A stretch of DNA of 47,880 nucleotides from a virus (lineage: Duplodnaviria; Heunggongvirae; Uroviricota; Caudoviricetes), in the IMG/VR virus record IMGVR_UViG_2880412407_000003, positions 1-47,880 of that record; one strand, given 5' to 3'. This document shows, piece by piece, positions 39,001-42,000 of this stretch (position 1 is the first letter of the stretch; every line of letters starts with the position of its first letter). Made by a program: the position numbers.

Positions 39001-42000
39001 TCGGTTAAATCAGAGCAGTCACCGCGGGTGGTGCTCTGGGAAATTGACCTGACGGTGCAGGGCGGTGAGCGGTATTTTTTCTGTAATGAGCTGAATGAAA
39101 AAGGGGAGGCGGTCACCTGGCAGGGGCGGCAATATCAGGTATACCCGATTGACGGCAGCGGTTTTGAGATGAACGGGAAGGGCAGCAGTGCCCGCCCGTC
39201 ACTGGCGGTGTCCAATCTGTTCGGTCTGGTCACCGGAATGGCGGAGGACCTGCAGAGCCTGGTGGGGGCCACGGTGGTCCGCCGCCGGGTGTATGCCCGT
39301 TTTCTGGATGCGGTGAATTTTGTGGCGGGCAATCCGGAAGCGGACCCGGAGCAGGAGCTGAGAGACCGCTGGGTGGTGGAGCAGATGTCAGAGCTGACGG
39401 CCATGACAGCCTCGTTTGTGCTGGCCACACCGACCGAGACGGACGGAGCGCTGTTTCCCGGTCGCATCATGCTGGCGAACACCTGTATGTGGGATTACCG
39501 GGGAGATGAATGCGGTTATCACGGTCCTGCGGTGGCGGATGAGTTCGACAACCCCACCACGGATATCCGTAAGGACAGATGCAGCAAGTGCATGCGCGGG
39601 TGTGAGATGCGCGGCATGGTGGCTAATTTTGGCGGTTTCCTTTCCATTAATAAACTTTCGCAGTAAATCCCGGTTTATGACACAGACTGAATCAGCGATT
39701 CTGGCGCATGCCCGGCGGTGTGCGCCTGCGGAGTCGTGCGGCTTCGTGGTGAGAACGCCGGAGGGGGAGAGGTATATCCCTTGTGTGAATATCTCTGCAG
39801 AGCCGGAGGCGTATTTTCGTATTGCACCGGAAGACTGGCTGCGGGCAGAGATGCAGGGGGGAGATTGTGGCACTGGTCCACAGTCATCCCGGTGGTCTGC
39901 CCTGGCTGAGCGAGGCCGACCGGCGGCTGCAGATAAAAAGTGCACTGTCCTGGTGGCTGGTCTGCCGGGGGGACATTCATAAATTCCGCTGTGTGCCACA
40001 TCTGACAGGACGGCGCTTTGAGCACGGGGTGACGGACTGTTACACCCTGTTCCGGGATGCATACCATCTGGCGGGAATTGATATGCCGGATTTTGAGCGT
40101 GAGGATGACTGGTGGCGCAACGGTCAGAACCTGTACCTGGACAATATGGAGGCGACTGGTTTTTACAGGATTTCCCTGCCTTCCGCACAGCCTGGCGATA
40201 TCCTGCTGTGCTGCTTTGGCGCATCGGTGACCAATCATGCCGCCATATACTGCGGCAACGGTGAGCTGCTTCACCATCTGCCTGAACAACTGAGTAAACG
40301 GGAGAGGTATTCCGAAAAATGGCAACGACGAACGCATTCTGTCTGGCGTCACCGCCGCTGGCACGCATCTGCCTTCACGGGGATTTACAACGATTTGGCC
40401 GCCGCCTCAGCCTGTATGTGAACACGGCAGCGGAAGCCATCCGGGCGCTGTCGTTACAGGTGCCGGGATTCCGCCGTCAGATGAACGAAGGCTGGTACCA
40501 GATACGTATTCGCGGTGAGGACACGGCACCGGAGGCGGTGTACGCCCGTCTTCACGAACAGCTGGGTGAGGGGGTGGTCATCCATATTGTGCCGCGACTG
40601 GCCGGGGCCGGAAAGGGTGGACTGCAGATTGTGCTGGGGCGGCAGCCATCGTGGGCTCTTTCTTCACTGCCGGGGCATCAATGGCGTTATGGGGTTCAGC
40701 CCTGGCAGCCGGTGGTTTTTCTGCCACCACGATGCTGTTTTCACTTGGAGCCAGCATGATTCTGGGCGGTGTGGCCCAGATGCTGGCCCCGAAGGCAAAA
40801 ACACCGGATTACCGCGCAACGGATAACGGTAAACAGAACACGTATTTTTCGTCACTGGATAACATGATTGCCCAGGGAACCCGATGCCGGTGCCTTATGG
40901 TGAAATGCTGGTTGGTTCACGACGGATATCCCAGGACATCAGCACCCGTGATGAGGGCGGAGACGGGAAAGTGGTGGTTATCGGGCGGGGATGAAAATAA
41001 AAAATCCCGCAGAGTTAGCGGAGCTGCGGGAGAGAACGATGAAGATTAACGTTATGGAGTTATTTTTCAGGCATCAAAAAAGTAATGCAGCGTCATTATT
41101 GCGGCTACAGGCAATTGCCGGAAATGTGAAGAGTTTCAGAAATTTTATTCCGTCATGACACAGGCACCCTCCGGGGTGCCTGTTGTTTTCTGGCATAAAC
41201 AGATTCAGACATCAGACAGGAGAGGGGGACAGAGTGGGTAAAGGGGGCGGCAAGGGGCACACGCCGGTAGAGGCAAAGGACAATCTTAAGTCCACGCAGA
41301 TGATGAGCGTGATTGACGCCATTGGTGAAGGGCCGATTGAAGGTCCGGTGAAGGGGCTGCAGAGTATTCTGGTGAACAAAACCCCGCTGACGGACACGGA
41401 CGGTAATCCTGTGATACATGGTGTGACAGCGGTCTGGCGCGCCGGGGAGCAGGAGCAGACACCACCTGAAGGCTTTGAGTCCTCCGGAGCTGAAACCGCA
41501 CTGGGCGTGGAAGTGACGAAGGCAAAGCCGGTGACGCGCACCATTACGTCCGCGAACATTGACCGCCTGCGGGTCACCTTCGGGGTGCAGTCACTGCTGG
41601 AGACCACCTCAAAGGGCGACCGTAATCCCTCTTCTATCCGACTGCTGATTCAGTTACAGCGTAACGGTAACTGGGTGACGGAAAAGGATGTCACCATTAA
41701 CGGCAAGACCACCTCGCAGTTTCTGGCGTCGGTGATTCTGGGTAATCTGCCGCCCCGGCCCTTTAACATCCGGATGGTCAGGGAGACGGCGGACAGCACC
41801 ACGGACCAGCTGCAGAATAAGACGCTCTGGTCGTCATACACCGAAATCATCGATGTGAAACAGTGCTACCCGAACACGGCGATTGTGGGGCTGCAGGTGG
41901 ATGCGGAGCAGTTTGGTGGCCAGCAGATGACGGTGAACTACCATATCCGCGGTCGCATCATTCAGGTACCGTCAAACTATGACCCGGAAAAACGCACGTA

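What the first reader, a model, noticed from the sequence alone, without database searches (positions are those of the whole stretch)
40995..41233. Extra 240-bp spacer with a hairpin between I and J
In lambda I and J are adjacent. Here an AT-rich spacer contains a GC-rich hairpin (CAGGCACCCTCCGGGGTGCCTG, about 41160-41182) and a possible 34-codon ORF.
Basis: seen in the sequence. Interest (0 to 1): 0.2.

Follow-up and report, generated by a model that had tools for sequence, protein, structure and literature searches.

The report
Known prophage small RNA gene (PasB)

Summary
A 239-bp spacer (40995-41233, 45% GC) lies between I and J, with a strong hairpin at 41160-41183. The ORF in it is not conserved and is not a gene.

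The main content was missed. The minus strand carries the sRNA gene published as EcOnc22/23/24 (EHEC Sakai, Hfq-CRAC, ~85 nt on northern, destabilised without Hfq) and as PasB (EPEC E2348/69, 83 nt, RIL-seq). The window's spacer matches the three Sakai copies at 239 of 240 positions. Both published northern probes land on it in the orientation that detects minus-strand RNA. The sRNA's terminator (41005-41031 plus a U6 tail) sits directly after the I stop codon.

Upstream of the sRNA are a conserved -10 hexamer (41095-41100) and an invariant CRP-like box (41125-41140).

The flagged hairpin is a plus-strand intrinsic-terminator-like structure. It shows one compensatory base-pair change. In about a third of sampled copies an unrelated terminator hairpin takes its place, and lambda has its own hairpin in its 60-bp I-J gap. 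Its role as insulator or mRNA stabiliser is inferred, not shown.

Verdict: already known and ordinary. One minor point may be new: the papers I read do not connect PasB with EcOnc22-24.

The parts
40995..41233 (.). I-J intergenic spacer, 239 bp, 45% GC
   Evidence: No annotated gene lies wholly inside it in 20 of the 22 related records checked. PhiR12_4 has a 33-aa hypothetical ORF there, and the phage 2851 record starts J about 40 bp earlier.
40999..41088 (-). pasB / EcOnc22-24 sRNA gene. The 3' end is at 40999. The 5' end is either ~41073 (aligned to the 5' end mapped in EPEC) or ~41088 (7 nt after the -10 hexamer).
   Evidence: The window's spacer is identical to the three Sakai EcOnc22/23/24 copies at 239 of 240 positions. 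The EcOnc22/23/24 northern probe matches the + strand at 41028-41062. The Hfq-CRAC peak maps to 41022-41082 on the minus strand after a +128 coordinate calibration. There are 63 identities to the 83-nt EPEC PasB.
40999..41031 (-). Intrinsic terminator of the sRNA. Read 5'->3' on the minus strand (descending coordinates): stem arm UCCCGCAG (41031-41024), 11-nt loop (41023-41013), stem arm CUGCGGGA (41012-41005), U6 tail (41004-40999).
   Evidence: It is the only consensus helix in 24 alleles, with one G-C to A-U compensatory change. The PasB northern probe covers the same hairpin in E2348/69.
41095..41100 (-). -10 hexamer of the sRNA promoter (AATAAT here, TATAAT in many alleles). This allele has no recognisable -35.
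   Evidence: It is conserved in every allele aligned. In E2348-type alleles the scan finds TTCACA-16-TATAAT, 11 of 12 matches. Promoter function was not tested.
41125..41140 (.). CRP-like box TGTGA-N6-TCAGA, within an invariant block from 41121 to 41150, at a fixed 27-nt distance from the -10 hexamer
   Evidence: It is the only hit with at most 1 mismatch in the 47.9-kb window. It is invariant in relatives retrieved by BLAST, while the neighbouring sequence varies. The binding factor is inferred only.
41160..41192 (+). Plus-strand intrinsic-terminator-like hairpin (10-bp stem, loop TCCG) followed by UGUUUUCUG.
   Evidence: 98.8% of cells pair across 16 alleles, with C-G to U-A in 4 alleles.
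41193..41236 (+). J leader with Shine-Dalgarno GGAGAGGGGG and GTG start codon
   Evidence: It is nearly invariant in most alleles and replaced in E2348- and WGPS8-type alleles.
40991..41158 (+). Judged not to be a gene.

Best explanation
The spacer is a small-RNA cassette inserted between tail genes I and J of a lambdoid prophage.

Shown by sequence identity plus published experiments on identical or homologous copies: the minus strand encodes an Hfq-dependent sRNA of about 75-90 nt. It is called EcOnc22/23/24 in O157 Sakai and PasB in EPEC E2348/69. It is transcribed antisense to the late operon and ends at its own intrinsic terminator immediately after the I stop codon.

Inferred here: it starts from a promoter with a conserved -10 hexamer at 41095-41100. 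This allele has no -35, so the promoter probably depends on the invariant CRP-like or UP-like box at 41125-41140. In the lysogen the RNA acts in trans through Hfq. The likely seed is the conserved single-stranded stretch UUAAUCUUCAU just upstream of the terminator. In EPEC, PasB had 37 RIL-seq partners.

It is a plus-strand intrinsic-terminator-like hairpin between the sRNA promoter and J.

Inferred, at about 55%: it stops transcription that is not Q-modified, whether read-through from I or divergent transcription from the sRNA promoter, from entering J in a lysogen. Q-antiterminated late transcription would pass through it.

The ORF is a by-product of the sequence and is not translated into a conserved protein.
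For: Locus identity:
- Tree 2014 Table S2 lists EcOnc22/23/24 in Sp15, Sp14 and Sp11, ~85 nt on northern and destabilised in a hfq deletion.
- Those coordinates fall in the I-J spacers of Sakai, on the strand opposite to I and J. After calibrating the +128 offset between genome versions on HnrS, they map to window 41022-41082.
- The published probe GGGAGAGAACGATGAAGATTAAC... hits the window + strand at 41028-41062 and the three Sakai copies with the same three edits. It therefore detects minus-strand RNA.
- The window's spacer matches the Sakai copies at 239 of 240 positions.
- PasB is at E2348/69 1466343->1466261, minus strand, 83 nt, between E2348C_1436 (I) and E2348C_1437 (J). It has a log2 fold change of -6.8 without Hfq and 37 RIL-seq interactions. 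Its probe is the I/J-sense strand of the hairpin next to the I stop.

sRNA architecture:
- The terminator is called on the minus strand. The predicted fold is a single-stranded body, an 8-bp hairpin and a U6 tail.
- The terminator is the only consensus helix in 24 alleles, with one compensatory change.
- The -10 hexamer and the box are conserved at fixed spacing, while the body between them is only 79% identical.
- E2348-type alleles have an 11 of 12 sigma-70 promoter match.

Plus-strand hairpin:
-.
- One pair changes from C-G to U-A in 4 alleles. Seven G.U wobble cells would be A.C mismatches on the minus strand, against 2 cells the other way.
- In about 47 of 141 sampled copies an unrelated strong hairpin with U-rich flanks replaces it.
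- Lambda's 60-bp I-J gap has its own hairpin plus U-rich tract.
Against: - No expression data exist for this window itself. All expression evidence comes from identical or homologous copies in other strains.
- The 5' end is unresolved. The 5' end mapped in EPEC aligns to 41073, while the near-consensus -10 hexamer predicts about 41088. Northern sizes (83-85 nt) lie between the two predictions for this allele (75 and 90 nt).
- The window allele has a U6 tail rather than U7 and lacks a -35 element. The promoter scan found nothing on either strand here.
- The CRP-like box would be centred near -44.5, which is not a canonical CRP position. Over the whole window one such match is expected by chance.
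- For the plus-strand hairpin, termination was never measured. Covariation rests on one pair in related sequences; 18 of 500 shuffles reach the observed score.
- The simple scan did not call the lambda hairpin or the PPompW_699 replacement hairpin as terminators.
Confidence: 0.85

Rival explanations
1. The hairpin at 41160-41183 is mainly an intercistronic mRNA element of the late operon. It would act as a 3' stabiliser of the I-proximal mRNA, or as a 5' protective hairpin for J mRNA after processing, and so set the I:J ratio. Under this view it is not primarily a transcription terminator or insulator.
For: A hairpin occupies the same position in lambda, which has no sRNA there, so the feature belongs to the I-J junction and not to pasB. 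Wobble intermediates favour a plus-strand RNA structure. Q-modified polymerase ignores terminators during lytic growth, when I and J are made (established lambda biology).
Against: All three unrelated hairpins are followed by U-rich tracts, the signature of termination. A pure stabiliser does not need them. There are no processing data.
Confidence: 0.25
2. The hairpin is the 3' end of a second, plus-strand small RNA. Such an RNA would start inside the spacer or derive from the I 3'UTR, overlap PasB in antisense, and act as its sponge or partner.
For: A hairpin plus U-tract is also an Hfq-binding module. The region between pasB and the hairpin is highly conserved. Convergent or overlapping sRNA pairs are described at another site in these prophages (Tree 2014).
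Against: No plus-strand promoter was found. Tree 2014 lists no Hfq-CRAC peak on that strand at any of the three Sakai copies. No E2348C_1436/1437 intergenic RNA appears in the stored parts of the RIL-seq tables.
Confidence: 0.08
3. The spacer encodes a small protein of 55, 39 or 34 residues, translationally coupled to I through the ATGA overlap.
For: The ORF 40991-41158 starts with an ATG overlapping the I stop codon. One phage record annotates a 33-aa hypothetical ORF in its spacer.
Against: The closest relatives have a 19-codon ORF because the A-run length differs. The longest ORF ranges from 1 to 55 codons, in different frames, among 134 copies. Indels are not multiples of three. PGAP annotates no gene there in any genome checked. 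In this window I itself is frameshifted, so coupling cannot work.
Confidence: 0.03
4. The spacer is a functionless recombination scar or junk DNA between two mosaic modules.
For: The middle of the spacer is the most variable part of the region (79% identity, with indels).
Against: The terminator stems, the -10 hexamer, the box and the hairpin are conserved at fixed spacing across alleles that otherwise diverge. Homologous copies give an abundant Hfq-bound RNA in two pathotypes.
Confidence: 0.02

Closest known systems
EcOnc22 / EcOnc23 / EcOnc24 (E. coli O157:H7 Sakai prophages Sp15, Sp14, Sp11; Tree et al. 2014, PMC4104026)
   Same: Same locus, same strand and practically the same sequence (239 of 240 positions across the spacer). 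The published probe matches. The RNA is Hfq-bound, ~85 nt, and destabilised without Hfq.
   Different: The window copy has an A6/U6 run where Sakai has 7. A 2021 review still lists the targets as unknown.
PasB (EPEC E2348/69 prophage PP6; Pearl Mizrahi et al. 2021, PMC8550237; Zhu, Shabalina and Storz 2026 preprint)
   Same: Same position between I and J, antisense to them. Same terminator hairpin, -10 hexamer, upstream box, and conserved motifs AACUCC and AUCUUCAU. It is Hfq-dependent.
   Different: Only 63 of 83 positions are identical, with three gaps. The 5' half differs. The EPEC allele has a near-consensus -35 that this allele lacks. The J leader also differs. None of the papers I read connects PasB with EcOnc22-24.
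AgvB / AsxR anti-sRNAs and HnrS (other prophage-encoded Hfq sRNAs of EHEC)
   Same: Short, multicopy, Hfq-dependent sRNAs with intrinsic terminators, carried as extra cassettes in lambdoid prophages. An AgvB copy lies in this same window at 20328-20389.
   Different: They sit at other sites: downstream of PR', and between Rz and terminase. They have unrelated sequences. HnrS is absent from this window.
Lambdoid 'morons' (Juhala et al. 2000 concept: promoter, gene and terminator inserted between two phage genes)
   Same: An autonomous transcription unit with its own promoter and terminator lies between two conserved late genes. It is absent from lambda, whose I-J gap is 60 bp.
   Different: The cargo is an RNA, not a protein. 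It is transcribed against the late operon.
Lambda I-J intergenic hairpin (AAACCGCC-TGCG-GGCGGTTT followed by TGTCATTT)
   Same: Same position in front of J, same orientation, and a GC-rich stem with a U-rich tail.
   Different: Unrelated sequence. I know of no published function. The simple terminator scan does not call it.

Membership tests
PasB / EcOnc22-24 sRNA | Located between tail assembly gene I and tail tip gene J of a lambdoid prophage, on the strand opposite to them | tested here: met
   The PasB 3' end lies 6 nt from the I stop in E2348/69, and the equivalent position is the same here.
PasB / EcOnc22-24 sRNA | Sequence homology to the published RNAs and their northern probes | tested here: met
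   239 of 240 positions identical to the Sakai loci. 63 of 83 identical to EPEC PasB. The EcOnc22/23/24 probe hits 41028-41062 with 3 edits, and the same 3 edits occur in the Sakai copies, so they are probably errors from machine reading of the PDF.
PasB / EcOnc22-24 sRNA | 3' intrinsic terminator: stem-loop plus U-tract | tested here: met
PasB / EcOnc22-24 sRNA | Own promoter upstream | tested here: inconclusive
   The -10 hexamer is conserved (AATAAT here). There is no -35 in this allele and the scan found no promoter. E2348-type alleles match 11 of 12.
PasB / EcOnc22-24 sRNA | Expressed, Hfq-bound and Hfq-stabilised | not testable with these tools
   Known only from the literature, for identical or homologous copies.
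Rho-independent terminator (plus-strand hairpin 41160-41192) | GC-rich stem, short loop, U-rich tract immediately 3' | tested here: met
   10 pairs, 7 G-C, loop of 4, tail TGTTTTCT. dG -27 kcal/mol, z -5.05.
Rho-independent terminator (plus-strand hairpin 41160-41192) | Structure maintained in evolution | tested here: met
   98.8% of cells pair. One pair changes from C-G to U-A in 4 alleles. The evidence is modest: 18 of 500 shuffles reach the observed score.
Rho-independent terminator (plus-strand hairpin 41160-41192) | Stops RNA polymerase in vivo | not testable with these tools
   No Term-seq table was available. The PMC7547250 supplements are not held.
Small protein gene | Reading frame conserved among homologues | tested here: not met
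CRP-dependent promoter | TGTGA-N6-TCACA site at -41.5 (class II) or at -61.5, -71.5 and so on (class I) | tested here: inconclusive
   9 of 10 core bases match. The centre is about -44.5 from the predicted start site, or about -59.5 from the mapped EPEC 5' end. PasB is higher in LB than in glucose-rich DMEM, which is only suggestive.
Any Rfam family | Covariance-model match | tested here: not met
   Nothing better than E = 1.8 in 40500-41700 on either strand. No hit at gathering score.

The most novel reading that the evidence does not exclude
The I-J junction may be a modular sRNA cassette. The flanks stay fixed: the sRNA terminator, the -10 hexamer, the upstream box at constant spacing, and a plus-strand terminator before J. 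The sRNA body is swapped or diversified between prophages. At least five or six body types were seen, plus a much more divergent RNA with a different terminator at the same site in L030-type contigs. Each of the up to nine copies in one genome could therefore carry a different targeting region under one shared regulatory input, possibly cAMP-CRP. The published PasB and EcOnc22-24 would be alleles of this one family, a link that none of the papers I read makes.
Probability: 0.4. Interest if true: 0.45.

Novelty: already known. Interest (0 to 1): 0.25.

Why it matters
The spacer is not an oddity of this prophage. It is the locus of a multicopy, Hfq-dependent sRNA of EHEC and EPEC prophages that is still absent from genome annotation and from Rfam.

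Recognising it explains the 'empty' 240 bp seen in hundreds of E. coli genomes. Linking PasB with EcOnc22-24 would let EPEC interactome data inform the uncharacterised EHEC RNA.

In this window K, I and J all carry frameshifts while the sRNA cassette is intact. That fits retention of the RNA for the benefit of the host.

Tried and rejected
- Rfam with permissive thresholds on the region, and at gathering score on the whole window, gave no family for the spacer.
- HnrS (EcOnc10-12) looked promising because it is multicopy with up to nine copies. It lies between Rz and terminase in Sakai and is absent from this window.
- AgvB, AsxR, PasA, PasC and PasD lie at the PR' or Q region, not at the I-J junction.
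- I first inferred a 275-bp coordinate shift between the two Sakai genome versions from a repeated sequence. This was wrong. Calibration on the HnrS seed gives a uniform shift of about +128.
- The promoter scan found nothing in 40000-42000 on either strand.
- The genome-contig scan with the box pattern returned only E. albertii plus three tiny contigs in unrelated genera. These are probably contamination and say little about distribution.
- Supplements with Sakai dRNA-seq and Term-seq sites (PMC7547250) and HnrS sequences are not held, so transcript ends could not be read off.
- I considered PasB pairing with the J Shine-Dalgarno sequence (UUCUCUCC with GGAGAGGG). I dropped it because the pairing is not conserved in the EPEC allele.
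- The ORF hypothesis was tested by conservation and rejected.
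Full report
**What is in the sequence.** The I reading frame ends with TGA at 40992-40994. J starts with GTG at 41234-41236, preceded by GGAGAGGGGG. Its GC content is 45%, against 58-59% in the flanking genes. 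The hairpin ACAGGCACCC-TCCG-GGGTGCCTGT (41160-41183) followed by TGTTTTCT is real. The scan calls it a plus-strand terminator-like site. It folds at -27 kcal/mol with z = -5.05, and none of 200 shuffles folds as well. The 34-codon ORF (41054-41158) is the end of a 55-codon ORF (40991-41158) whose ATG overlaps the I stop codon.

**The spacer in relatives.** Megablast finds the region in 151 phage records, almost all Stx-converting phages. It is also in 801 of 5426 complete E. coli genomes, with a median of 3 and up to 9 copies per genome, at identities from 100% down to about 80%. No gene lies wholly inside the spacer in 20 of the 22 related records I opened. PhiR12_4 has a 33-aa hypothetical ORF there, and the phage 2851 record starts J about 40 bp earlier. 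An alignment of 13 copies gave the key pattern:
- Next to the I stop there is an inverted repeat, TCCCGCAG...CTGCGGGA, with constant arms and a variable loop, preceded by an A-run. On the minus strand this reads as stem-loop plus U-run, that is, a minus-strand terminator.
- The middle ~90 bp is very variable and has indels that are not multiples of three.
- The last ~115 bp is almost invariant.
- The A-run is 6, 7 or 8 long, which shifts the 55-codon frame. The closest relatives have a 19-codon ORF. Among 134 sampled copies the longest ATG ORF ranges from 1 to 55 codons, in different frames.

The ORF is not a gene.

**Identification with published sRNAs.** A minus-strand terminator implied a minus-strand transcript, so I searched the literature on EHEC prophage sRNAs.

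Tree et al. 2014 (PMC4104026), Table S2, lists three homologous Hfq-CRAC peaks: EcOnc22, EcOnc23 and EcOnc24, in Sakai prophages Sp15, Sp14 and Sp11. The RNA was ~85 nt on northern and destabilised in a hfq deletion. In the current Sakai record these coordinates lie in the I-J spacers, on the strand opposite to I and J. The paper used the older genome version. Locating HnrS by its published 15-nt complementarity to mazF shows a uniform shift of about +128 bp. With that shift the EcOnc22 peak maps to window 41022-41082, minus strand.

The decisive item is the northern probe 'EcOnc22/23/24', GGGAGAGAACGATGAAGATTAACTGATGAGTTA. It matches the window plus strand at 41028-41062 and all three Sakai copies with the same three edits, which are probably errors from machine reading of the PDF. 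A probe with the plus-strand sequence detects minus-strand RNA. The window's spacer matches the Sakai copies at 239 of 240 positions; the only difference is A6 in place of A7.

Independently, Pearl Mizrahi et al. 2021 (PMC8550237), Table S6, define PasB in EPEC E2348/69. It is on the minus strand at 1466343->1466261, 83 nt long, between E2348C_1436 and E2348C_1437, with probe AATCCCGCAGTGATCGCGGAGCT. Those two genes are I and J, with a 240-bp gap. The probe is the I/J-sense strand of the hairpin next to the I stop. PasB falls 100-fold without Hfq (log2 fold change -6.8), has 37 RIL-seq interactions, and is more abundant in the non-activating (LB) condition.

The window RNA aligned to PasB shares 63 of 83 positions with three gaps. 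The locus is therefore the pasB/EcOnc22-24 gene. The PasB table notes EHEC homologues for PasA and PasD but none for PasB. The 2026 Storz-lab preprint on Pas sRNAs never mentions EcOnc. A 2021 review lists EcOnc22-24 with unknown targets.

**Anatomy of the sRNA unit (minus strand).**
- Terminator: arms at 41031-41024 and 41012-41005, an 11-nt loop, and a U6 tail at 41004-40999.
- In 24 diverse alleles RNAalifold keeps only this helix. One allele (L035) has a G-C to A-U compensatory change.
- The body is predicted to be largely single-stranded. It carries the conserved motifs CUGCGUUA, a U-run, AACUCC and UUAAUCUUCAU. The preprint proposes the PasB seed lies just upstream of the terminator.
- A -10 hexamer (AATAAT here, TATAAT in many alleles) lies at 41100-41095.
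- In E2348-type alleles the scan finds TTCACA-16-TATAAT, 11 of 12 matches. The window allele has no -35 at that place.
- Exactly 27 nt upstream of the -10 hexamer in all 38 loci measured begins an invariant block containing TGTGAAGAGTTTCAGA (41125-41140). This matches 9 of 10 bases of the CRP core and is the only such match in the window.
- I regard this block as an activator or UP-like element, but only as an inference. Its centre would be near -44.5 from the predicted start site, which is not a canonical CRP position. One such match per 48 kb is expected by chance.
- The 5' end is unresolved. The EPEC 5' end aligns to 41073 (75 nt here), while the -10 hexamer predicts about 41088 (90 nt). 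Published sizes of 83-85 nt lie in between, and processing at the U-run is possible.

It lies upstream of the sRNA promoter and points the other way, so it is not the sRNA terminator.
- Across 16 distinct alleles 98.8% of cells pair. One pair changes from C-G to U-A in four alleles.
- Seven cells are G.U wobbles on the plus strand and would be A.C mismatches on the minus strand; only two go the other way. This favours a plus-strand RNA structure. The evidence is modest, because the sequences are related and 18 of 500 shuffles reach the observed score.
- Among 141 copies collected with the box pattern, about 94 have this hairpin. About 47 (PPompW_699 type) have an unrelated sequence in its place. 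That sequence contains another strong hairpin, AAACCCCGGTATC-TGCT-GATACCGGGGTTT, with U-rich flanks (dG -28.7 kcal/mol, z -6).
- Lambda has no sRNA here. Its 60-bp I-J gap holds AAACCGCC-TGCG-GGCGGTTT followed by TGTCATTT.

Three unrelated hairpins with U-rich tails thus occupy the same position in front of J. This argues for a function tied to the I-J junction itself. The simple scan did not call the lambda or PPompW hairpins as terminators.

The most likely role is termination of transcription that is not Q-modified before it reaches J. An mRNA-stabilising role is a serious alternative. A plus-strand sRNA ending at the hairpin is unlikely: there is no promoter, no CRAC peak on that strand, and no RIL-seq entry.

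**Variation.** The sRNA body and the stretch between the -10 hexamer and the box are the least conserved segments (79% mean pairwise identity). By comparison, the I 3' end is 88% identical, the J 5' end 93% and the hairpin 95.5%. Several clearly different body types exist. A few contigs (L030 type) carry a much more divergent RNA with a different terminator behind the same box. This supports a cassette with fixed flanks and a changeable targeting region. The collection used here was selected with the box pattern, so conservation of the box in that set is by construction. The BLAST-derived sets are the unbiased evidence for it.

**Verdict.** The real content is a known sRNA gene on the other strand. 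Novelty: already known. The small additions are the equivalence of PasB and EcOnc22-24, the fixed promoter box, and the positional conservation of a terminator-like hairpin before J.

Noticed in passing
window 39856, 40635, 40874, 43920: Single-base homopolymer indels relative to an intact relative (Stx1_14040): +1 G in K, -1 G twice in I, and -1 A in J. All three tail genes are frameshifted while the sRNA cassette is intact. This is either a decaying prophage or homopolymer sequencing errors. J is also annotated as frameshifted in strain 86-24.
   Followed up: partly
window 20138-20389: Rfam finds STnc100 (20138-20327, +) abutting AgvB (20328-20389, -). This is the convergent sRNA pair of the PR' moron site described by Tree 2014.
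   Followed up: no
window 4959-5010 (-), 14005-14179 (+), 19116-19362 (+): DicF, a sok antitoxin RNA and three tRNA genes are present, so the window is a nearly complete lambdoid prophage rich in RNA genes.
   Followed up: no
window 23085-24298 and 24526-25739; 28147-29303 and 30504-31660: Two tandem IS3-family copies on the minus strand, each with a 108-aa and a ~295-aa ORF and an ALIL frameshift pseudoknot. A second pair of IS-like units (100-aa plus 272-aa ORFs) lies in inverted orientation around 29300-30500.
   Followed up: no
L020 (PPompW_699) 655-836: About a third of sampled pasB loci replace the plus-strand hairpin and J leader with an unrelated ~180-bp segment. It holds a strong hairpin that reads as terminator-like on both strands (704-736) and a second small hairpin (AGCATG...CATGCTTTTC).
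   Followed up: partly
L030, L045, L084, L104 (IMG/VR contigs), 150 nt upstream of the box: The same promoter box is followed by a much more divergent RNA body. It keeps AACTCCTTAAGG but has a different terminator, CTCCCG...CGGGAG plus a T-run. This is a distant member of the family or a swapped cassette.
   Followed up: no
L075 (IMG/VR contig) upstream of the box: The box and hairpin are present, but the sRNA and I are replaced by unrelated sequence. The breakpoint lies inside the stretch between the -10 hexamer and the box, which suggests an insertion or rearrangement.
   Followed up: no
L150 (lambda NC_001416) 15445-15504: Lambda's own 60-bp I-J gap contains a hairpin with a U-rich tail. 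I know of no described function for it.
   Followed up: partly
L013 / L014 / L015 (Sakai Sp12, Sp10, Sp9): HnrS can be located exactly from its mazF-complementary seed...AATAATCTTCTACCCAATCAGTACATTACTGCTGTGACTCCAACACGGCAGTTTTTTT. This shows that Tree 2014 coordinates are about 128 bp lower than those of NC_002695.2.
   Followed up: yes
L025, L026, L028 (genome contigs): Exact matches to the E. coli prophage box occur on very short contigs of Asaia, Parendozoicomonas and Streptomyces assemblies. These are most likely E. coli contamination of those assemblies.
   Followed up: no
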